IMG/VR virus record: IMGVR_UViG_2681813320_000003
Coordinates: 1 to 25,704 of that record
Origin: a virus
Lineage: Duplodnaviria; Heunggongvirae; Uroviricota; Caudoviricetes
Length of the DNA: 25,704 nt
Direction: 5' to 3' (one strand)
Below, one piece after another: positions 2,985 to 24,671 of the stretch. Below the pieces are notes generated by a model. It saw nothing but the letters and a program-made list of their open reading frames with translations. It made no database searches and was not told the origin of the DNA. The position numbers and the translations under genes were made by a program. Within the stretch, counting starts at the first letter, position 1. Every line of letters starts with the position of its first letter.

Positions 2985-3586
2985 GGATTCACTCTCATTG
3001 TGTCAATAACATGGACCGCCCCGCCTTCATGCGCGGTACCACCGGAAATAATCGTTTCGTTGATATACGGATAGATCGTGATTTCTTCGCCAAGATAGCT
3101 GGCGGCTCCCACCCAATGCGGGCCGCTGGTCTGCAGATTGATGGACATGCCGATCATGTGGCGGCTACATGGTTTGGCATCGCTTATCAGTCGCTCAAGT
3201 TCCAGATAGGTATCTTCAGTGATGCCCTGGTCCTGCACGCCGATATCCAGGCGAAACGTGCCCGGTGTTTCTCCGGTCTGCCACCACTCAATAATGCGGA
3301 TCAGGAATCCGAACGGCTCCACCACCCGCCGCACGGCACTGGTGGTCCCTTTATGCTGATGAATATAAAAAGCATCCTTCACCACCTGGCGCTTGACGCT
3401 TTCTGTCCAGCCCTCGTCCCAGCGATCCACAGAGAACGCCCAGGCGAGATAAGGCAGGAAACTGACCGGACAGGTTGCCGGATTCCACAAGTCACGAAGC
3501 GGCACCTGCAGATCAGAAATCCCGCTGCAGGTTTTCGCCAGTCGGCGCTCCAGTGGTGTTGAACCCGGCGGCAGCAGACTATTCAT
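2981..3586 (-). CDS. I: baseplate/tail protein I
   Basis: 201-aa ORF immediately upstream of H, overlapping its start; P2 gpI position and size class. Confidence 0.8.
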   Translation of the reverse strand: MNSLLPPGSTPLERRLAKTCSGISDLQVPLRDLWNPATCPVSFLPYLAWAFSVDRWDEGWTESVKRQVVKDAFYIHQHKGTTSAVRRVVEPFGFLIRIIEWWQTGETPGTFRLDIGVQDQGITEDTYLELERLISDAKPCSRHMIGMSINLQTSGPHWVGAASYLGEEITIYPYINETIISGGTAHEGGAVHVIDTMRVNP

Positions 3587-4487
3587 CCGTTCCTCCGTTG
3601 GTTACGCTCCACTGCGTACATGATGCCGCCTGTGTTTTGTTCAGGACCACATCCGCCAGAGGAGAAGCCAGCTCCACACGCTGCACACCCTCAACATGCA
3701 GGGCGGCAAAGATGGCGCTACGGCGAATATCCCGACCAAGACGTGTCTGACTGGCGATGTACCTCTGCAGGCTGACTTTTGCCGCTGCCATTACCGGCTC
3801 TGCTTCCGGTCCCGGATAAAGAAAAATGGTGGCTTCCACACGGTACGGGATGATTTCTGCGCTGCGAACCGTAAGACGGTCAGCCACCGGGCGGACGTTC
3901 TCACTGTTCAGAGCTTTTTCCACCACGTCCAGCAGGTCTTTTTCTGCAGTTCCATCGCCTTCGCGGCTAAGGACAGTCAGCACCACCTCTGCAGGTGCCG
4001 GGCTGGTTGCACTGGCATCCGCCACCCGGCCGTCGGCGCTTCGGGCATGAAATTCATAAGCTGCAGTTGGCCCCGCAACAGAAAGCCCTTCAAAGGCTGC
4101 AGGCACACGCAGGCGTAACGCTTCATCGCTTTCCATCACAGCTGCAACGGGCGGCACAGCATCATTATCAGCAGGCGTCACCGTCAGGCGTGTCACGTTG
4201 TAGTTGGCAGCGAGCTGGTCAAGATCGCCGCCCATCGCGTAAGCCACCATCACCGCCTGCGCGGCTTCGTTAATGCGCTGGCGCAGAAGCAACTCACGGT
4301 AAGCGTTCTCCTGCAACAATTTAGTGACGGGTTCAGATTCCAGTTCCAGCGTGCGGATCACGGCTTCCTGCTCATCTTTCGGATGAAGCGCAACAAATTG
4401 GGCCTTGCGTTCGGCAAGCAGCGTCTCAAAGTCCGGCACATCCACAATCTGCGGTGCAGGCAACTGCGAAAGGTCAATCGCTGCCAT
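3579..4487 (-). CDS. J: baseplate assembly protein J
   Basis: Start chosen at the ATG 4485-4487 (MAAIDLSQL...), giving 302 aa as for P2 gpJ; overlaps the W stop; synteny. Confidence 0.85.
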   Translation of the reverse strand: MAAIDLSQLPAPQIVDVPDFETLLAERKAQFVALHPKDEQEAVIRTLELESEPVTKLLQENAYRELLLRQRINEAAQAVMVAYAMGGDLDQLAANYNVTRLTVTPADNDAVPPVAAVMESDEALRLRVPAAFEGLSVAGPTAAYEFHARSADGRVADASATSPAPAEVVLTVLSREGDGTAEKDLLDVVEKALNSENVRPVADRLTVRSAEIIPYRVEATIFLYPGPEAEPVMAAAKVSLQRYIASQTRLGRDIRRSAIFAALHVEGVQRVELASPLADVVLNKTQAASCTQWSVTNGGTDE

Positions 4488-14274: not shown

Positions 14275-15684
14275 TTACTCATCTACTCTGATTTTTTGTT
14301 TTTTATTATTTTGAGTTAAGACATTTATGGTAATAGATGTATACGGATGAAAGTCAGGCACTATACTTTTAACCTCTCCATTTTCAAGAAAATGATGTGC
14401 TATTGAAGGAAATAAATCAGGATCTACAGGATATTTAGCATTAGGATTATGATACATATTTAAACCTTCTGCCCATGTTTCTGTAATATCGCCTTCTTTC
14501 ACTTCAAAACTAAATGCTGCTGGATATAATGCCTCTGGGTCATGATCATGGCAGTAACCACTCCTAAATAATCTAAGGTCACTTCTTCCAAAACCAGCCA
14601 ATTTTCCCATCCGATTAAACTTCGATATAGTACCACTATTAGAACTAAGGACGGCCGAAATATTTTCAGACTCATCCAAGAAGAAAAAGCCTGAAGGAAT
14701 TTCCTTTTTCTCAAATTGATGCGATATAATTTTCTTAGTTGCTAAACTGTAACATCCATCTTCAGATTTAACATGCTCATAGCGAATACCATAAAGATAC
14801 TGCCAAAGTGCACTATGGGACCAAATCATAGAGTTTGGTTCATGAAAATCAGCAATTGCGAAAATTAAAGGATTCCCCTTAACATGTTCTAGATCCCAGT
14901 ATCGAGTTTTCTTTTTCAGTTTAGAATAGAGAGAACTTCCAAATTTAATCGGCATATAATTCTCTATTTTCTCTAGCAATTCTTCCTTACTTTTAGGTTC
15001 AGATAGCATTTCAGATGATTGATTAATATCATTCCCTGTTGGATTAACCGTTACAGCTTCAATGCAAATAGTATTACCATACTTACGTGCCACATAATCA
15101 GGAGCATTAAACTGCCTATCTAGCCAAAAGTGTTCCTCTCGTAAATATGCGAAAAGATATAACTCCCATAGCCGGGCATCAAAACCTGTTGTCTGAAACT
15201 GCTCTATAAAATTCCCGTCGACATCCTCAAAATGATTCATCATTTCCTTGATTATCCCTGTTGCAGGCGACCAGTTCGCGTATTTACCAAATAATGAAAA
15301 ATGATGATGAAGTTTATCTGGTGTAACTATAGGTGTGAATAAATCCATTGCTTTATAAGTTTCATCACCTTGTGGAAATACTTTTACGTTTAATTTAGTA
15401 TGCTTCCGCATTAATTTCTTTAGTTTTGCTCGTGCAGAATTCATTTCTGAAACACTAGTAAATAGGTCAATACATCTATATCTCCCACTTAAGTCTCTTG
15501 CTAAAACAATACCGCTATAATCTTCATCGATTTGATCCAATAATAGCGCCCCTAGCAGGAACTCTCTCGGACTACAGTACCACTCAAACTCATAGCCTAA
15601 AAGTTCAGTATTTGGCATTCTGGTCCAATCAACAAAAGCATTAAACCTCTCTTTACTCATTTTTTTTATATCAAGAAAAGACAT
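14275..15684 (-). CDS. hypothetical protein, AT-rich cargo (moron) gene; function unknown
   Basis: 469-aa uninterrupted ORF in markedly AT-rich DNA, with a GAGGT Shine-Dalgarno 8 nt upstream of the ATG. No Walker A or other motif recognisable by eye. Confidence 0.75.
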   Translation of the reverse strand: MSFLDIKKMSKERFNAFVDWTRMPNTELLGYEFEWYCSPREFLLGALLLDQIDEDYSGIVLARDLSGRYRCIDLFTSVSEMNSARAKLKKLMRKHTKLNVKVFPQGDETYKAMDLFTPIVTPDKLHHHFSLFGKYANWSPATGIIKEMMNHFEDVDGNFIEQFQTTGFDARLWELYLFAYLREEHFWLDRQFNAPDYVARKYGNTICIEAVTVNPTGNDINQSSEMLSEPKSKEELLEKIENYMPIKFGSSLYSKLKKKTRYWDLEHVKGNPLIFAIADFHEPNSMIWSHSALWQYLYGIRYEHVKSEDGCYSLATKKIISHQFEKKEIPSGFFFLDESENISAVLSSNSGTISKFNRMGKLAGFGRSDLRLFRSGYCHDHDPEALYPAAFSFEVKEGDITETWAEGLNMYHNPNAKYPVDPDLFPSIAHHFLENGEVKSIVPDFHPYTSITINVLTQNNKKQKIRVDE

Positions 15685-15781
15685 CTTTCTACCTCATCAC
15701 GAAAAAATATTTTTTCCTAAAAAGACTTAAGTTAGCTTAATCTATTGATAAAAAAAAGCTAAGTAACGACCAAATACGCGC

Positions 15782-15801
15782 GCTCGTATCCCCGCCACGC
15801 C
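15782..15801. other. cos-like cohesive-end site
   Basis: The reverse complement GGCGTGGCGGGGATACGAGC shares its first 13 nt (GGCGTGGCGGGGA) with the P2/186 cohesive-end sequences as I recall them. Confidence 0.45.
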
Positions 15802-15846
15802 TGCCCGCTTTATGTAGTGGTTTTCATGCACCTGCATGATCTACGC

Positions 15847-15870
15847 AAAAGCCCGCCAGTTCTGGCGGGC
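15847..15870 (-). terminator. rho-independent terminator downstream of the dinI-like gene
   Basis: GC-rich hairpin gcccgccag-tt-ctggcgggc followed by a TTTT run on the minus strand. Confidence 0.5.
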
Positions 15871-16005
15871 CTTAGCAAAAACGATCCTCAAACGATCATG
15901 CGATCTCATGCGGCATAGACATGCACTACAGAGCTAACGCCTCGCAAGGGCTCGTTGTTCAACCTTGCTGACGCCAGAAGCAAGTTCAGACGCCAGCAAC
16001 GTTTC

Positions 16006-16239
16006 TTAATGCAGCCAGCTGTCGTCTTCCCACACCTTCTGCATAATTTTCATCACTTGTTTTCTTTCTTCGTCCAGTTGCAGTCCGGTTAGTTCCACAC
16101 CGTTAGAGCTACCTTTGCGAATGCGAATTACCGTTTTGGGATACAGGGGGCGCAGATTGCGGTAAAGCTCGGATTCAAGGGCGTCCAGGGTAGACTGGCT
16201 AATCTTCTGCTCTTTATCGATCATTATTTCAATGCGCAT
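16006..16239 (-). CDS. dinI: DinI-family protein (Tum C-terminal-like)
   Basis: From the internal ATG 16237-16239 the product MRIEIMIDK...LDALESEL...KIMQKVWEDDSWLH aligns by eye along its length with E. coli DinI (MRIEVTIAK...IDALAGEL...ILQETWESADDW). GAGGTG Shine-Dalgarno upstream. Confidence 0.75.
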   Translation of the reverse strand: MRIEIMIDKEQKISQSTLDALESELYRNLRPLYPKTVIRIRKGSSNGVELTGLQLDEERKQVMKIMQKVWEDDSWLH

Positions 16240-16249
16240 AAAAGTCACC

Positions 16250-16438
16250 TCAGCTGATGACATCCATTGAGCGGTTGTATTCGTGGGTTCTGATTTTTGC
16301 CATGAGTTCATCAGTCAATTCAGAAACCCACTGCAGAGCCAGCCCCTTCTCTTCATCACTACACTCACTAGCCGCTACAAGCTTAAGAAAAAAATCAATG
16401 CGCTGGAGCTTCAAAGACTCCAAAAAATAGTCCTGCAT
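16250..16438 (-). CDS. small protein, possible Tum N-terminal-like antirepressor moiety
   Basis: 62-aa ORF from ATG 16436-16438 with a strong AGGAGG Shine-Dalgarno, immediately upstream of the dinI-like gene and downstream of a LexA box. The longer track ORF (to 16540) would overlap the LexA box. Confidence 0.5.
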   Translation of the reverse strand: MQDYFLESLKLQRIDFFLKLVAASECSDEEKGLALQWVSELTDELMAKIRTHEYNRSMDVIS

Positions 16439-16481
16439 CTTTCCTCCTATGACACCACACGCAATGCTGTATGCATAACCA

Positions 16482-16497
16482 CTGTTTATATTTACAG
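16482..16497. promoter_or_regulatory. LexA operator (SOS box) CTGT-N8-ACAG
   Basis: Exact match actgtttatatttacagta to the consensus TACTGT(AT)4ACAGTA, located about 45 bp upstream of the tum-like start on the minus strand. Confidence 0.7.
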
Positions 16498-16591
16498 TAT
16501 ATAATAATCTTACTGATGTAAAACGATTTTTTACGTTCATCAGCCTGATATGCCTGGTATTATTAAGAGCACGAATTGTTAACCCGCGTAA

Positions 16592-19006
16592 TTAATACAG
16601 GTTCCGCCACTGATCATCTTCCTGCAAACGCTGGTTCCGATAGAAGATACGCAGGCCTGCTCCTGACGGAATACTGCCTCCGCGAAGGAGTAAATCGACC
16701 TCTTTCTCGCTGCCATCAAATCCTCTGGACTTCAGCTCATACACGAGCTGCAGTCGCTGATGGTCTGTAATTCGCTGTTTGTAGTCTTTACGCCGTTTCG
16801 GTTTCACCAGGCGTAACCTTGCTGCCAGTTCCCTGCGCTCTTTTTTGCTCATACTGTGCAGGTAATCGTGCAACTCCTTGTCATCCATGCTGGTAATGTC
16901 CGTTCTGGGGTCCCCATCAGCTGATTTATCTTTCTCCTGTTGGTTCAAATTTTCAGCAAGGGGACAGTTATTGCCACGAGTCCAAGGGGCGCAAGCGCCC
17001 TGGTCGGCTGCCGCCTCCTGAACGTCAACGGCCTTACGAACCATTTTCCACTTCACTGCATGAGTGCAGATTTTGCCCTCTGCAATGGGTGACCAGATGC
17101 CATAAATACGAATGCCGTGATCGCCATAGGCGGTCGGCTCTTCGTTGATTTCATAAGCGGTTCTGATGAGGTGATATTTACGGGGAACCAGTACGCCGCC
17201 CTGCTTCATGATGTAGGTGGCAAAACAACCAGCATCAGCTGCAGCCAGAATGGCATCAAGGCGCGGGTTATCCAGTACCGGCGCACCTGCTTTTTTGTCA
17301 CCCTGTTGCCTTGCCACCTGACCAGCCAGCAATCGCAGTTCACGGTAAGCCTGACGCCCCGGAATGCCAAAGAAGCGGAATTGCTGAACACGATGCAGAG
17401 ACGCCCAGGCATTAACGTATTCAGCGTTATCACGCAGAGATTTACCCGTTTCCTTGCTGATCTCGCCAGCCAGACCACGCCCGTCAATGTTCTTACTGAT
17501 GTATTTCGCGATGTAGCTAGTCGGCGTTCCTTTGCGCGGGTTAATCAACTCAGACTTAAAGCGCGGCCCCGTGTTATTGCCCAGCTCCTCGCGGTCTTCA
17601 CGGATGGCAAACTTACGCAGTAATGCAGTGATGGCGCGGCGGTCTTTTTTGCGCATAAAACACAACAGGTGCCAGTGAACTGTGCCGTCATGATGCGGCT
17701 CAGCAACCCGCACGCCATACCAGCGCAACCCGGCTTTGTGCATAGCCTTACGAAATGCAGCAAACATGCCGACCAGATAATCACTGCTTTGTCTTACCGT
17801 CGCATTTGTCCAGTTCGGGTTGGGTCTGCCGTTATTTAGCGTGGAATGGAAACGTGACGGACAGGTGATGGTGTAGAAAACGGCGCAGTCACCGCGCATT
17901 TCCGCGATAAGTTCCAGACCTTTAACACAGGCCATCATCTCATTGCGGCGATGCGCAGGGTTGCTGCTGCTGGCGTTTACCACATCCTCCATGTCCAGCG
18001 TGTCGCCGTCTTCGTTCACCAGTTCATGAGAACGGAAAAACTCCAGCGACTTACGGCGCTGCTCACGTTTATGCATCACGGCTTCATAGCTGACATAAGG
18101 AGATGCTTTTTTGCTGACCAGGCAGACAGCGCGCAACTGCTCTTCCCGCCATTCGCAACGCATCTTCCATAATTTCCGGTACCACCAGTCAGCGCACAAC
18201 ATACGCGCCAGCGAACCCGGAATGAGTTCATAGGGCACGGGTTTACGGCGGTTTCTTTTCCGACGGAGTTGCTCAAACGCAGGCGGGATAACATCCAGAC
18301 GCAGGGTTTCCGCTACCACCTTTTCCCATGTCTTGCGGATTTCTTCTGGCTTAACGTCATCGGTGGCATACAAATCACCACAAGCTGCATCAAGGCACAT
18401 GCTCATATGCGCAGCGACAAGGGTAGACAGGCGCTTCACCTGATCCTGACTCATTTCAGGCAGGATAAGCAGGCCATCCAGCCCTTCATGGCTTGCCATA
18501 AAGCGAAAAGAAGCGGATAGCTGACTGTCGCGTACATGCTCCAGTCGTTCCAGACATGGCTTAATCGTCTCACGCAAATAGCGGGAATAAGCCTTTGGCC
18601 TGCCCAGGCTGCTGAAGTATTCAATACGTTGCATCAGCGGCTTGCTGATATGGGAAGGCTGGGCATTGACGTCCGCCAGAATGACCATATCTGGATTAAA
18701 ACGCTGCTGCTCATGCGCCAGCTTTGCCCGACTAATGAGCTTATCCTGCTCCATTTCGCGCTGGACAGGATCACGGGATTCATTAAAGAAATAACGCTCC
18801 CAGACCTGATCACTCAGTGCCTCGCGGCGCAGCTGTTCCTGCTCGTTATCGGCAGCGTACAGAGTGATCAGGTTTGAAAGCGCAGAAACCGGCGCAACTT
18901 CCGCCGGGTCCAGATAAGGGTTAATGGCCTTTTTCGGGCTGTTCCATGAGAACGATGCGGCAGCCTCGTTAAAGCCGCAGCAGTTGTTCATATCGGCATG
19001 GCTCAT
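16592..19006 (-). CDS. A: replication initiation protein A (rolling-circle endonuclease, P2 gpA family)
   Basis: 804-aa ORF with an HUH-type metal-binding motif ([13 protein letters not shown]) and a paired-tyrosine motif (YIAKYISKN); P2 gpA size class. Confidence 0.85.
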
Positions 19007-21804: not shown

Positions 21805-22437
21805 ATGTTAAACATCAGAATGGGTTCCGATACGGGAGGTAAGGCAGCTATTGAAAGGCTGCTTGAGGCTTATGGATTCACAACTAAGCAGGCATTAAGC
21901 GAGCACCTGAATGTCTCAAAAAGCACTATGGCAAACAGAGTGTTACGTGACAGCTTTCCTGCTGACTGGATAATTCAGTGCGCACTAGAAACCGGTGTTT
22001 CGTTGCTTTGGTTAGCTACAGGACAGGGAAGCATGAAAGGAGGAGCTGAGCCTGAGAAAAGTTCTCATAATGAGAACAAACAAGCAATTAAACCGTTATC
22101 CAAACTCATAACTCCAGCTATTCCTAAAGGAACCCTGGAGAATGGACAACTCAGTATTGATGAAGAGATTTTCCTAGACCACAGCATATTACCTGCAGAT
22201 TATGAAGAATCGATGTTCTTAGAAACCCCTACTGATTGTTATCTCATCGATAAATCAATTAAACAGGTCAGCAATGGATTCTGGCTTATCAATATTGATG
22301 GAATGATTATTGTTGCAAAAATCATGCGGATTCCCGGCAATAAGATTGTAGTAAATCAAGATGAAGCGTCTTTCGAGTGCTCTACTGATGATGTGGAAGT
22401 TATTGGGCGTGCAGTCAAAGTAATAAAGAGTATCTAA
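21805..22437 (+). CDS. cI: CI immunity repressor
   Basis: 210-aa ORF with an N-terminal helix-turn-helix-like region (TKQALSEHLNVSKSTMANRVLRD), located immediately upstream of int and co-oriented with it, as in phage 186. Confidence 0.8.
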   Translation: MLNIRMGSDTGGKAAIERLLEAYGFTTKQALSEHLNVSKSTMANRVLRDSFPADWIIQCALETGVSLLWLATGQGSMKGGAEPEKSSHNENKQAIKPLSKLITPAIPKGTLENGQLSIDEEIFLDHSILPADYEESMFLETPTDCYLIDKSIKQVSNGFWLINIDGMIIVAKIMRIPGNKIVVNQDEASFECSTDDVEVIGRAVKVIKSI

Positions 22438-23465: not shown

Positions 23466-24671
23466 ATGCATATTCAACAAGAACTCGATGAAGAACTTAA
23501 TAATCTTTTTGACACTATTAGAAAAAAATCAAGTATTCGACCACCAATTGAGATTGAAAAAAACCTTACTTTGATAGATGACTTCGCTCTAAAATGCAGT
23601 AAATTCCGGGGTTGTTTAGTAGATTACATCCAGGAAAATGATAACAGGTTAAGTTTACGCTTGCGCAATAGACTTAGAGCTGTAGATATCATGCAGAAAG
23701 AAATCGTCTCGTGTTTAGAGTGTTTTTTATCAGGGGATATTAAGTCGGCATATGACTCATTTGAAAGTATGCTAGAGCCACGAACTATATCTCGTCATAT
23801 TGAAAATATATGCATACCTCTTTCTGACTTATGTAATGAAGATAAACCATTATTCCGCGTTAGAAAATCTGATACGCCACTTACATCAAGAAGAGATATG
23901 TTTCATATTCCGTTCAGTCAGCGTCACTTTGTTAGAGCACAGAGATTTTCAGTTGCTGGTCTACCCTGTTTATATTTAGGAACATCTCTTTATATATGCT
24001 GGAGAGAAATGGATAAGCCAGATTTTGATAAGCTATATATATCTGCCTACAAGATCGATAAAAATAATGACTCAAAGGTACTAAATATAGGACCTGATTT
24101 TTTATATAAACAGAGATCTATATTAGAGTCAAAAAGAAAGAACAAATATGATTTCAATACCAAACTCTCATATTTAGCACTTTGGCCTTTGATAATTGCA
24201 TGCAATTATTTAAAAAAATATGACAATGCTTCCTTTGTACAAGAATATATTATCCCCAATCTTTTGATGCAATGGATCAGTCGGAACAGCAATGAGAATG
24301 TTGTTGGTATAGCCTACCGCTCAACAAAATTACCTGCTAATGCCTTAGGTAGCAGAGGAATAAATGTGGTACTTCCTCCAAAAGTGCGTTACGAGGAGAT
24401 GGCCAATAATGAATTTTGTCCAAATCTAGCGAAAATTTTCAAATTCACATTGCCTGTATCTTGGCAGGTCCTAAAAACAGTTGAGTACGTGCCTGAATCA
24501 GTTGCACAATCCGATCGAGAGAATCTCAGCAGAAGGCTACGAAGAAGAAAAAATCGTGAGCTAACAGGAAGCATAGATGATGAAATTTTGAACATCTATA
24601 ATTTAACTGACTTTTATAAACTCGAAACTTGTATGGATGAAATTCAAGTATATGCCCATATTAAACCATGA
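23466..24671 (+). CDS. AT-rich cargo protein with RES-domain-like motifs (putative NAD+-targeting toxin or effector)
   Basis: 401-aa ORF starting 9 nt after the int stop. Motifs RFSVAGLPCLYLGTSLYICWRE and GIAYRST...GINVVLPP fit the RES-domain pattern. Marked drop in G+C relative to flanking phage genes. Confidence 0.55.
   Translation: MHIQQELDEELNNLFDTIRKKSSIRPPIEIEKNLTLIDDFALKCSKFRGCLVDYIQENDNRLSLRLRNRLRAVDIMQKEIVSCLECFLSGDIKSAYDSFESMLEPRTISRHIENICIPLSDLCNEDKPLFRVRKSDTPLTSRRDMFHIPFSQRHFVRAQRFSVAGLPCLYLGTSLYICWREMDKPDFDKLYISAYKIDKNNDSKVLNIGPDFLYKQRSILESKRKNKYDFNTKLSYLALWPLIIACNYLKKYDNASFVQEYIIPNLLMQWISRNSNENVVGIAYRSTKLPANALGSRGINVVLPPKVRYEEMANNEFCPNLAKIFKFTLPVSWQVLKTVEYVPESVAQSDRENLSRRLRRRKNRELTGSIDDEILNIYNLTDFYKLETCMDEIQVYAHIKP

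What the first reader, a model, noticed from the sequence alone, without database searches (positions are those of the whole stretch)
16006..16500. LexA-boxed two-gene tum/dinI module: SOS-inducible antirepressor, possibly split relative to 186 Tum
Seen in sequence: a perfect LexA box (CTGT-N8-ACAG) precedes a 62-aa ORF with a strong Shine-Dalgarno, followed 8 nt later in a different frame by a DinI-family ORF, then a terminator. Established knowledge: phage 186 is SOS-inducible through the LexA-repressed tum gene near the right genome end, and as I recall the Tum C-terminus is DinI-like. Inference: here the antirepressor and DinI-like moieties are separate ORFs (62 + 78 aa), which could be a natural two-gene arrangement, a frameshifted tum, or a programmed frameshift.
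Basis: partly seen in the sequence, partly recalled or inferred. Interest (0 to 1): 0.5.

Follow-up and report, generated by a model that had tools for sequence, protein, structure and literature searches.

The report
SOS-controlled prophage antirepressor operon tumA-tumB
This is the known DNA-damage switch of a common P2/186-like E. coli prophage: a LexA-repressed promoter drives a small antirepressor gene (tumA) and a separate DinI-like gene (tumB), an ordinary, already described two-gene arrangement and not a broken gene.

Summary
A LexA box (16499-16480) overlaps a promoter. It is followed by a 62-aa ORF (16438-16250), a 10-nt gap, and a 77-aa DinI-family ORF (16239-16006). The operon lies after the gpA replicase gene and about 200 bp before cos.

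- **Homology.** The 62-aa protein is homologous to the N-terminal half of phage 186 Tum at profile level (hhalign 94%, E 1e-7; reciprocal PHROG hits). The second ORF matches the Tum C-terminal half (41% identity).
- **Prior description.** The split arrangement is annotated as tumA/tumB in phage PSP3 and is present in Fels-2 (98-100% identical proteins). In E. coli HS prophage DuoHS, the 62-aa gene is 61/62 identical. Its deletion, or lexA(Ind-), abolishes mitomycin induction (PMC12055606).
- **Not a frameshift.** Both genes have their own ribosome-binding sites and dN/dS of 0.02-0.10. The gap varies from 3 to 13 nt with all three frame offsets, so frameshift readings are rejected.
- **Frequency.** The module occurs in 1143 of 5426 complete E. 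coli genomes.

Verdict: already known, low interest.

Side notes: a colicin-type second overlapping LexA box; tumB is often absent in relatives; TumA is far more conserved than its presumed CI target; a PD-T7-1 defence gene sits next door.

The parts
16517..16522 (-). -35 hexamer TTTACA of the tumA promoter (counterpart of 186 p95)
   Evidence: It lies 17 nt upstream of TACTGT. TTTACA sits at this spacing in 22 of 30 species loci, while the spacer sequence varies. 186 p95 is annotated as TTCACA-N18-TACTGT. The consensus scanner did not call it because the -10 matches only 3/6.
16480..16499 (-). LexA (SOS) box 1, TACTGTAAATATAAACAGTG. Its first 6 nt (16499-16494) serve as the -10 hexamer.
   Evidence: It matches the consensus at 17/20, and 0 of 100 shuffles gave such a match. 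It is conserved in position in 186, PSP3, Fels-2, SopEPhi, MLG42 and the ESSI-2 types, and in 30-31 of 33 species loci.
16465..16484 (-). Possible second, weaker LexA box overlapping box 1 by 5 nt (CAGTGGTTATGCATACAGCA), colicin-operator-like
   Evidence: It has 7 mismatches to the consensus here. Relatives have 3-6 mismatches in 21 of 31 species loci and 4-5 in Fels-2, SopEPhi, MLG42 and Klebsiella ST13phi12.1. 186, PSP3 and the ESSI-2 types have 12-15. The layout is the same as in colicin N and E1-like operators. Function is inferred, not shown.
16443..16448 (-). Shine-Dalgarno AGGAGG of tumA
   Evidence: Read directly from the sequence. It is conserved as AGGAGG(G) in relatives.
16250..16438 (-). 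tumA: 62-aa antirepressor gene (stop codon included)
   Evidence: hhalign to 186 Tum residues 5-44 gives 94.3%, E 9.8e-8. PHROG cross-hits support this. The protein is 98.4% identical to Fels-2 STM2728. It is 61/62 identical to E. coli HS DuoHS tum (ECHS_RS04495), whose deletion abolishes induction. dN/dS is 0.03-0.09. AF2 predicts a two-helix hairpin with pLDDT 87.
16246..16251 (-). Shine-Dalgarno GAGGTG of tumB, overlapping the tumA stop codon
   Evidence: Read directly from the sequence. Relatives have their own G-rich sites in gaps of different length.
16006..16239 (-). tumB: 77-aa DinI-family gene (stop codon included)
   Evidence: Pfam DinI, E 6.6e-23. It is 41% identical to 186 Tum residues 71-145, E 3e-24. 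It matches PDB 1GHH (DinI) at E 2.7e-6. It scores below the NCBIfam DinI equivalog cut-off, 42.7 vs 111 bits. dN/dS is 0.02-0.10.
15961..16003 (-). Stable hairpin right after tumB, without a U-run (possible partial terminator or 3' stabiliser)
   Evidence: Predicted by RNA folding. A hairpin at the same place in Klebsiella ST13phi12.1 has a different stem sequence. 186 has the partial terminator t95a at this position. Function is inferred.
15844..15872 (-). Intrinsic terminator ending the operon
   Evidence: A GC-rich 9-11-bp stem is followed by UUUUGCG.
15783..15801 (-). cos cohesive-end site GGCGTGGCGGGGATACGAG (context: the operon is the last unit at the right genome end)
   Evidence: The first 13 nt are identical to 186 cos, and the conserved flank cataaag(y)gggca is present.
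21805..22437 (+). cI: 186-type immunity repressor, the presumed target of TumA
   Evidence: Pfam Phage_CI_repr (1.9e-30) plus Phage_CI_C (3.5e-30), with no S24 peptidase domain. It is 30% identical to 186 CI, E 1e-34.
16592..19006 (-). gpA-type replication endonuclease gene, immediately upstream (synteny marker)
   Evidence: Pfam Phage_GPA, E 5.5e-127. The same gene order is found in 186, PSP3 and Fels-2.

Best explanation
This is the SOS-induction operon of a Fels-2/186-like (Peduoviridae) prophage, with two independent cistrons.

In an undamaged cell, host LexA sits on a box that overlaps the -10 of the promoter and keeps the operon off. A second, overlapping box may add to this. DNA damage activates RecA, LexA cleaves itself, and the promoter fires.

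TumA (62 aa, a two-helix hairpin) is the antirepressor. It binds the 186-type CI repressor, which cannot be cleaved by RecA, and stops it binding its operators. That releases the lytic promoter.

TumB (77 aa) is a DinI-like protein translated from its own ribosome-binding site. It is an accessory that probably modulates RecA filament activity and hence the course of the SOS signal. It is not needed to define the module.

Basis of each step:
- Shown by sequence: the elements themselves, their homology and their conservation.
- Shown by others in a near-identical prophage: tumA and cleavable LexA are required for induction.
- Inferred from 186: TumA binds CI.
- Inferred from family membership only: the role of TumB.
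For: - **Anatomy and LexA box.**
- **Promoter and box conservation.** Both are conserved across 186, PSP3, Fels-2 and others and in 30-31 of 33 species loci.
- **TumA homology to the Tum N-half.** hhalign 94.3%, E 9.8e-8. 186 Tum hits phrog_698 at 2.7e-5, and ORF62 hits phrog_8554 and phrog_1993, the PSP3 TumA family.
- **TumB homology to the Tum C-half.**; Pfam DinI.
- **Prior annotation.** PSP3 is annotated with tumA ('UV induction of prophage') and tumB. Fels-2 has the same pair with 98-100% identical proteins. The literature states that Fels-2 and PSP3 have a split tum and that the PSP3 upstream gene is the antirepressor (PMC3121763).
- **Experiment in a near-identical prophage.** DuoHS tum is ECHS_RS04495, 61/62 identical to ORF62. 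Delta-tum and lexA(Ind-) both block mitomycin-induced lysis (PMC12055606).
- **Presumed target.** The window encodes a 186-type CI with no S24 domain.
- **Independent cistrons.** Each has its own SD; the gap is 3-13 nt with offsets 0, 1 and 2; dN/dS is 0.02-0.10.
- **186 mechanism.** LexA-regulated p95, and Tum sequesters CI (PMC7708051; annotation).
Against: - No experiment exists on this exact sequence. TumA-CI binding has never been shown for the Fels-2-type protein. Similarity to 186 Tum is only about 20% identity over 40 residues, and BLASTP and phmmer miss it.
- TumA does not co-vary with CI as a specific binder might be expected to. Identical TumA occurs with CIs that are 40-100% identical. 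The Mantel test against the CI N-domain gives rho 0.19, p 0.075, and none against the C-domain.
- TumB is less acidic than host DinI (my own count from the sequences). It scores below the NCBIfam DinI equivalog cut-off. It is absent from 13 of 33 related loci. Its role is therefore uncertain.
Confidence: 0.9

Rival explanations
1. This is a decayed, frameshifted copy of a single fused tum gene of the 186 type, and so a pseudogene.
For: 186 encodes one 146-aa Tum that covers both halves. In the window, the tumB reading frame stays open for 24 codons upstream of its ATG.
Against: - The same two-ORF layout is 95-100% conserved in more than 1000 complete E. coli genomes. It is also found in phages of Salmonella, Klebsiella and Yersinia.
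- Both ORFs are under strong purifying selection, with dN/dS of 0.02-0.10 at saturated dS.
- tumB has its own SD and ATG. Its start aligns with the internal start of 186 Tum95.5.
- No remnant of the 186 linker is present.
- In DuoHS the 62-aa gene is required for induction.
Confidence: 0.02
2. Programmed +1 frameshifting, or stop-codon readthrough, makes a fused TumA-TumB protein, which is the real antirepressor.
For: The gap is short and the tumB frame is open across the junction. In PSP3 and MLG42 the two ORFs are in frame and separated by a TAG.
Against: - The frame offset between the two ORFs is 0, 1 or 2 in close relatives, with gaps of 3, 9, 10, 11, 12 and 13 nt. No single recoding mechanism could be conserved across these.
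- No slippery heptamer is seen at the junction (sequence).
- The junction hairpin is not significant (z -0.38) and is not conserved.
- 13 of 33 relatives carry tumA with no tumB at all.
- No protein of about 140 aa with an N-terminal ORF62 domain exists among 66 cluster representatives.
Confidence: 0.03
3. The 62-aa protein is needed for SOS induction but does not work by binding CI. It might instead act on another pro-lysogenic factor, on LexA or RecA, or on CI oligomerisation through a conserved host partner.
For: TumA is nearly invariant while CI varies widely, and the co-variation test is not significant. Homology to the 186 Tum N-half is remote. The DuoHS study shows requirement, not mechanism.
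Against: - Homology to the half of 186 Tum that carries antirepressor activity, with the same genomic position and control.
- PSP3 TumA is reported to be the antirepressor (PMC3121763).
- Every locus examined with enough flank carries a 186-type CI.
- The CI N-domain keeps many invariant residues that could form a common docking surface.
Confidence: 0.07

Closest known systems
E. coli HS prophage DuoHS tum (ECHS_RS04495) plus its adjacent DinI-like gene
   Same: The 62-aa protein is 61/62 identical. TumB has the same RefSeq protein accession as in strain S88, whose 771-bp module is 100% identical to the window. The promoter and LexA box are the same. Delta-tum and lexA(Ind-) abolish MMC induction.
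   Different: There is one amino-acid change (T51S). The CI is a different allele, and different cargo lies downstream.
Salmonella phage Fels-2 STM2728 / STM2726.1 (the 'tum homologue')
   Same: TumA is 98.4% identical and TumB 100% identical. The 10-nt gap, the frame offset and the LexA box 1 are the same.
   Different: The Fels-2 CI is only 58.5% identical. Its second LexA box is stronger, with 5 vs 7 mismatches. An orf97-like gene follows in Fels-2, where the window has cos and PD-T7-1.
Phage PSP3 tumA/tumB
   Same: It has the same two-gene architecture behind gpA and under a LexA box. tumA is annotated 'UV induction of prophage' and tumB is DinI-like. By eye, its TumB differs from the window's at about a dozen of 77 positions.
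   Different: - PSP3 TumA belongs to another subfamily (phrog_1993). It is only weakly similar to ORF62 (hhalign E 0.0036; PHROG 0.0022).
- Its two ORFs are in frame with a 3-nt gap.
- It has a single LexA box.
Coliphage 186 Tum (p95 SOS operon)
   Same: - A LexA-repressed promoter with TACTGT as the -10.
- The same position after gene A, near the right end of the genome.
- An N-half homologous to TumA and a C-half homologous to TumB.
- An internal start (Tum95.5) that coincides with the tumB start.
- A 186-type CI as the target.
   Different: It is a single 146-aa polypeptide with a 25-residue linker. It has a single LexA box. orf97 follows in the operon.
Gifsy-1/-2/-3 dinI-gfoA/gftA operons
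   Same: A LexA-controlled operon pairs a dinI homologue with a small antirepressor that inactivates a non-cleavable repressor (PMC3121763).
   Different: The gene order is reversed (dinI first). The antirepressors and repressors are unrelated lambdoid types.
Colicin operators with two overlapping SOS boxes (colicin N, colicin E1-like)
   Same: The operator layout CTGT-N8-(A/C)CAGTGGTTAT..TACAG is the same, with 81-85% identity over 45-49 nt to the Fels-2 version. Dual boxes bind two LexA dimers and give very tight repression (PMC2994835).
   Different: They control colicin genes on plasmids. The window's second box is more degenerate. LexA occupancy of it is untested.
E. coli DinI (PDB 1GHH)
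   Same: TumB aligns end to end with it (E 2.7e-6) and matches Pfam DinI.
   Different: TumB scores below the NCBIfam equivalog cut-off. By my count its net charge is about 0, against about -5 for DinI. RecA binding is untested.

Membership tests
Tum-type LexA-controlled antirepressor (TumA of PSP3 / Fels-2 / DuoHS; N-half of 186 Tum) | Sequence homology to the Tum N-terminal (antirepressor) region | tested here: met
   hhalign of 31 ORF62 relatives against 186 Tum gives 94.3%, E 9.8e-8, aligning residues 5-44 to 5-44. 186 Tum hits phrog_698 at 2.7e-5, and ORF62 hits phrog_8554 at 2.4e-8. ORF62 is 61/62 identical to DuoHS tum. Plain BLASTP is negative.
Tum-type LexA-controlled antirepressor | Promoter overlapped by a LexA box | tested here: met
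   The box matches the consensus at 17/20 and overlaps the -10. It is conserved in position in phage relatives and in 30-31 of 33 species loci.
Tum-type LexA-controlled antirepressor | Location after the gpA replicase gene at the right end of a P2/186-like genome | tested here: met
   gpA is immediately upstream. cos lies about 200 bp downstream. The order is the same in 186, PSP3 and Fels-2.
Tum-type LexA-controlled antirepressor | Cognate 186-type CI repressor lacking a RecA-dependent self-cleavage domain | tested here: met
   The window CI has PF07022 and PF16452 and no Peptidase_S24. It is 30% identical to 186 CI.
Tum-type LexA-controlled antirepressor | SOS- and LexA-dependent expression, and requirement for prophage induction | not testable with these tools
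   Shown for the 61/62-identical DuoHS gene (PMC12055606). Not shown for this sequence.
Tum-type LexA-controlled antirepressor | Binds CI and blocks its DNA binding | not testable with these tools
   Known for 186 Tum (Shearwin et al. 1998, as cited). The sequence co-variation test between TumA and CI was inconclusive.
Fused 186-type Tum (single polypeptide) | One continuous ORF spanning the antirepressor and DinI-like halves | tested here: not met
   A TGA stop, a 10-nt gap and a +1 frame separate the two halves. No fused representative was found in the ORF62 subfamily.
DinI family | Match to the DinI domain over its full length | tested here: met
   Pfam PF06183 at 81.3 bits against a cut-off of 24.2, covering profile positions 1-63 of 63. 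PDB 1GHH at E 2.7e-6.
DinI family | Orthology to host DinI (NCBIfam equivalog NF007893) | tested here: not met
   42.7 bits against a cut-off of 111. It is a phage paralogue, not the host protein.
DinI family | Binds RecA filaments and modulates co-protease activity | not testable with these tools
   Inferred from family membership only. 186 annotation says the equivalent Tum95.5 'modulates SOS induction'.
Programmed ribosomal frameshift site | Conserved frame relationship and a slippery sequence or stimulatory structure at the junction | tested here: not met
   Offsets of 0, 1 and 2 occur among relatives. The junction hairpin has z -0.38. No slippery heptamer is seen.
Colicin-type double overlapping SOS operator | Two LexA boxes overlapping by a few bp, with the second in the register ..CAGTGG-N8-ACAG.. 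| tested here: inconclusive
   The layout is present. The window's box 2 has 7 mismatches, against 3-6 in most relatives and 4-6 in colicin N and E1-like operators. LexA occupancy is untested.

The most novel reading that the evidence does not exclude
In Fels-2-type prophages the tumA promoter carries a colicin-type double, overlapping LexA operator. This would make induction a very tightly repressed, late-firing SOS function. In addition, one nearly invariant TumA serves CI repressors that are only 40-60% identical, so a single SOS pulse, or one prophage's TumA, could cross-induce heteroimmune P2-like prophages sharing a cell. Some E. coli genomes carry up to 4 copies of the module. I found neither point stated for this phage group in the papers I could read.
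Probability: 0.3. Interest if true: 0.4.

Novelty: already known. Interest (0 to 1): 0.15.

Why it matters
The finding matters little as a discovery. The tumA/tumB split has been annotated in PSP3 and discussed for Fels-2 and PSP3 since the early 2000s. The near-identical gene in E. coli HS was shown in 2025 to be required for SOS induction.

It has practical value for annotation. The antirepressor that decides induction of a prophage present in about one in five complete E. coli genomes is still labelled 'hypothetical protein' by RefSeq. It has no Pfam or NCBIfam model.

Two side observations could be tested cheaply and bear on how polylysogens coordinate induction: the colicin-like double SOS operator, and an almost invariant TumA facing very divergent CI repressors.

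Tried and rejected
- BLASTP of ORF62 against 186 Tum gave no alignment.
- phmmer of ORF62 against 1.84 billion cluster representatives gave 66 hits. None was 186 Tum, and none was a fused form of about 140 aa. Profile methods were needed.
- ORF62 has no Pfam, NCBIfam or PADLOC hit. It has no sequence relative in the PDB. Foldseek on the AF2 model returned only generic helical hairpins, all with E > 0.9.
- Rfam found nothing real in 15600-16700.
- The hairpin over the tumA stop and tumB SD, flagged as terminator-like, is not more stable than shuffles (z -0.38). It is not conserved in SopEPhi, MLG42 or the Klebsiella phage. I do not claim it as a regulatory element.
- The consensus promoter scan found no sigma-70 site. 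The promoter was assigned by homology to 186 p95 and by conservation.
- The co-variation test of TumA against the CI domains was not significant (N-domain rho 0.19, p 0.075; C-domain rho 0). An earlier impression from 8 sequences that TumA tracks the CI N-domain is not upheld.
- An apparent in-frame TumA-TumB in phage 500465-1 comes from homopolymer indels in that record.
- The search for related loci with the alignment failed because it had no conserved stretch. I reran it with the single protein.
- Bunny et al. 2002, the primary Fels-2 tum paper, is not held. I used its citation in PMC3121763. My memory of its abstract, that the Fels-2 tum homologue causes lexA-null lethality, is unverified here.
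Full report
**What is there.** The feature lies on the minus strand. Reading 5' to 3' on that strand:
- The end of a gpA-type replication endonuclease gene (19006-16592; Pfam Phage_GPA, 5.5e-127).
- A -35 hexamer TTTACA (16522-16517) and a 17-nt spacer.
- The 20-mer TACTGTAAATATAAACAGTG (16499-16480). Its first six bases serve as the -10.
- AGGAGG (16448-16443).
- A 62-codon ORF (ATG 16438, TGA 16252-16250).
- Ten nucleotides that contain GAGGTG.
- A 77-codon ORF in the +1 frame (ATG 16239, TAA 16008-16006).
- A stable hairpin without a U-run (16003-15961).
- A canonical intrinsic terminator (about 15872-15844).
- The cos site GGCGTGGCGGGGATACGAG (15801-15783). It shares its first 13 nt and its upstream flank with 186 cos.

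**Check of the observation.**
- The CTGT-N8-ACAG core is unique in the window. On its own it is only weakly surprising: 0.31 are expected, and 23 of 100 shuffles have one.
- The full 20-mer matches the LexA consensus at 17/20. That never occurred in 100 shuffles.
- A box sits at the homologous place, overlapping the -10, in 186, PSP3, Fels-2, SopEPhi, Yersinia MLG42, ESSI2_ev015 and ESSI-2, although the flanks have diverged.
- A box is also present in 30 of 33 loci from different Enterobacterales species, or 31 if one CTGC variant is allowed. TTTACA lies 17 nt upstream in 22 of them.
The gap is 10 nt, not 8. The second ORF is 77 aa, not 78. The true terminator lies about 134 nt beyond the stop. 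Everything is on the minus strand.

**Identity of the two proteins.**
- The second ORF is a DinI-family protein. It matches Pfam DinI at 6.6e-23 and PDB 1GHH at 2.7e-6. It aligns without gaps to residues 71-145 of 186 Tum (41% identity, E 3e-24).
- The 62-aa protein has no Pfam, NCBIfam or PADLOC match and gives no BLASTP alignment to 186 Tum.
- At profile level the relationship is clear. A profile of 31 diverse relatives (A1) aligns residues 5-44 to Tum residues 5-44 with 94.3% probability, E 9.8e-8.
- PHROG hits are reciprocal. ORF62 hits phrog_698 (3.6e-38), phrog_8554 (2.4e-8) and phrog_1993 (0.0022). 186 Tum hits phrog_1993 (1.4e-22), phrog_8554 (1.4e-11) and phrog_698 (2.7e-5). PSP3 TumA is phrog_1993.
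- The shared core reads E-x3-(L/I)-(Q/E)-R-(I/V)-x-(L/M)-x2-(R/K)-L-x-A-x3-C-x3-(D/E)-(K/R)-x-(L/I)-A-(L/I).
- AlphaFold2 predicts a two-helix hairpin (pLDDT 87). It has no informative structural neighbour.

**This arrangement is already described.**
- PSP3 carries tumA (60 aa, 'similar to 5' end 186 tum; UV induction of prophage') and tumB ('similar to dinI and 3' end of 186 tum').
- Fels-2 carries the same pair as the window, with TumA 98.4% and TumB 100% identical.
- Lemire et al. [quoted passage not shown] - The P2-like prophage DuoHS of E. coli HS has a 62-aa gene, ECHS_RS04495, that is 61/62 identical to the window's ORF. It is followed by a DinI-like gene with the same RefSeq protein accession as in strain S88. 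The S88 module is 100% identical to the window over the 771 bp searched.
- Ortiz de Ora et al. 2025 name that gene tum. They show that its markerless deletion, like lexA(Ind-), abolishes mitomycin C-triggered lysis and virion production (PMC12055606).
- The 771-bp module occurs in 1143 of 5426 complete E. coli genomes. It is 100% identical in S88 and other ExPEC and APEC strains, and RefSeq calls the 62-aa gene 'hypothetical protein'.

**Two genes, not a damaged or recoded one.**
- Each ORF has its own Shine-Dalgarno sequence.
- Across window, Fels-2, SopEPhi, MLG42 and Klebsiella ST13phi12.1, both ORFs show dN/dS of 0.02-0.10 while dS is near or beyond 1.
- The spacer is 10, 10, 11, 12 and 13 nt in those phages, 3 nt in PSP3 and 9-12 nt in the species loci. 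All three relative frames occur. That excludes a conserved frameshift or readthrough device.
- The small hairpin over the junction is no more stable than shuffled sequence (z -0.38) and is not conserved.
- None of 66 cluster representatives is a fused protein of about 140 aa with ORF62 at its N-terminus.
- 13 of 33 species loci, and phage ESSI2_ev015, carry tumA under a LexA box with no dinI-like gene downstream.
- In 186, the annotated internal GTG start of Tum95.5 (residue 71, preceded by AAGGAGG) coincides with the start of tumB. The 186 gene therefore looks like a fusion of two cistrons that kept the second start site. The Fels-2-type operon does not look like a split of a single gene.

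**Mechanism.** The window encodes a 186-type CI (21805-22437, plus strand). It has Phage_CI_repr and Phage_CI_C domains, no S24 peptidase domain, and 30% identity to 186 CI. It also encodes the CII, Fil and Int neighbours. The best-supported chain is:
1. LexA occupies the box over the -10 and keeps the operon off.
2. RecA-stimulated LexA cleavage opens the promoter.
3. TumA accumulates and inactivates CI by binding it, as shown for 186 Tum (Shearwin et al. 1998, as cited).
4. The lytic promoter is released.

TumB, by family membership and by the 186 annotation 'modulates SOS induction', probably tunes RecA filament activity.

The sequence elements and their homology are shown here. The requirement for tumA and for cleavable LexA was shown by others in a 61/62-identical system. 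CI binding by this TumA and any role of TumB are inferred.

**A caution on the target.** TumA is 71-100% identical across 31 loci. Over the same loci the CI N-domain ranges from 38 to 83% identity to the window's CI, and the C-domain from 24 to 56%. Identical TumA sits with CIs that are 40-100% identical. A Mantel test finds no significant co-variation (N-domain rho 0.19, p 0.075; C-domain rho about 0). Either TumA docks on residues that stay invariant across CI alleles (many such residues exist in the N-domain), or modules reassort faster than they co-evolve, or TumA does not work on CI alone.

**The operator.** Directly after box 1, and overlapping it by 5 nt, lies CAGTGGTTATGCATACAGCA (16484-16465).
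- In Fels-2, SopEPhi, MLG42, Klebsiella ST13phi12.1 and 21 of 31 species loci, the corresponding 20-mer has only 3-6 mismatches to the LexA consensus. In 186, PSP3, the ESSI-2 types and a Pantoea/Erwinia group it has 10-15 mismatches.
- A blastn of the Fels-2 promoter against plasmids hit more than 1000 records, most of them small mobilizable plasmids, at 81-85% identity over 45-49 nt among the listed hits. The two hits I inspected are the promoters of colicin N and of an E1-like pore-forming colicin.
- The colicin N promoter reads TACTGTATATAAAACCAGTGGTTATATGTACAGT. This is the classic pair of overlapping SOS boxes, which binds two LexA dimers and gives especially tight repression (PMC2994835).
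- The window's copy of box 2 is the weakest of its group, with 7 mismatches. Whether it is occupied is open.

**Verdict.** The module is a textbook-type SOS antirepressor operon that is already annotated (PSP3), discussed (Fels-2 and PSP3) and functionally tested in a near-identical prophage (DuoHS). Novelty is 'already known' and interest is low. The modest residue of novelty lies in the colicin-like double operator, the optional nature of tumB, and the decoupling of TumA from CI sequence.

Noticed in passing
window 16465-16484 (-); also L003, L005, L006, L007, L019-L040, L050, L051: A second LexA-like box overlaps the first by 5 nt. Together they give the same layout, and nearly the same sequence, as the double overlapping SOS operators of colicin N and E1-like genes. 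It is absent from 186, PSP3 and the ESSI-2 types. The window's copy is the most degenerate of its group, with 7 mismatches.
   Followed up: partly
window 14275-15684 (-): A 469-aa ORF lies between cos and the portal gene, in the P2 A/Q cargo hotspot. It matches the anti-phage defence protein PD-T7-1 (PADLOC E 1.3e-196; also PD-T7-5 at 1.4e-56). It has no Pfam or NCBIfam hit, and RefSeq calls it hypothetical. It is separated from the tum operon by the terminator and cos.
   Followed up: partly
window 15783-15801 (-): The cos cohesive-end site GGCGTGGCGGGGATACGAG. Its first 13 nt and its upstream flank are shared with 186 cos. This places the tum operon about 200 bp from the right end of the virion genome.
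   Followed up: yes
L019-L051 (33 species loci), L011-L016; window 21805-22437 (+): TumA is much more conserved (71-100%) than the CI repressor it presumably targets. The CI N-domain is 38-83% identical and the C-domain 24-56%. Identical TumA is paired with CIs only 40% identical. The co-variation test was not significant. Some E. coli genomes hold up to 4 copies of the module, so cross-induction between heteroimmune prophages is conceivable.
   Followed up: partly
L024, L028, L034, L038, L042-L049, L051; L008 (ESSI2_ev015): Many relatives carry LexA-boxed tumA with no dinI-like gene within 8 kb downstream. tumB is therefore an optional accessory of the module.
   Followed up: partly
L001 3293-3523 (phage 186): The annotated internal GTG start of 186 Tum95.5, with its own AAGGAGG, aligns exactly with the start codon of tumB. 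This suggests that 186 tum is a fusion of two cistrons and not the ancestral form.
   Followed up: partly
window 15961-16003 (-); L007 about 1640-1690; L004 about 3555-3600: A hairpin lies right after the tumB stop and is followed by a conserved GGTTGAACAAC...GCGAGGCGTTAG stretch. The stem sequence differs between relatives while pairing is kept. It has no U-run. It may be a partial terminator like 186 t95a, or an mRNA 3' stabiliser.
   Followed up: no
L018 (phage 500465-1, NC_049342) 181-830: This public record differs from the window by four single-base homopolymer indels inside tumA and tumB. The effect is a scrambled protein and an apparent in-frame fusion. These are most likely sequencing errors.
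   Followed up: yes
window 23466-24671 (+): A 401-aa ORF lies directly after the integrase gene, at the prophage edge. It has no Pfam, PADLOC or NCBIfam match and may be further cargo.
   Followed up: no
window 16592-19006 (-) vs L002 9589-12029: The gpA replicase gene is intact in the window (804 aa). In strain S88 it is annotated as frameshifted, although the tum region there is 100% identical.
   Followed up: no
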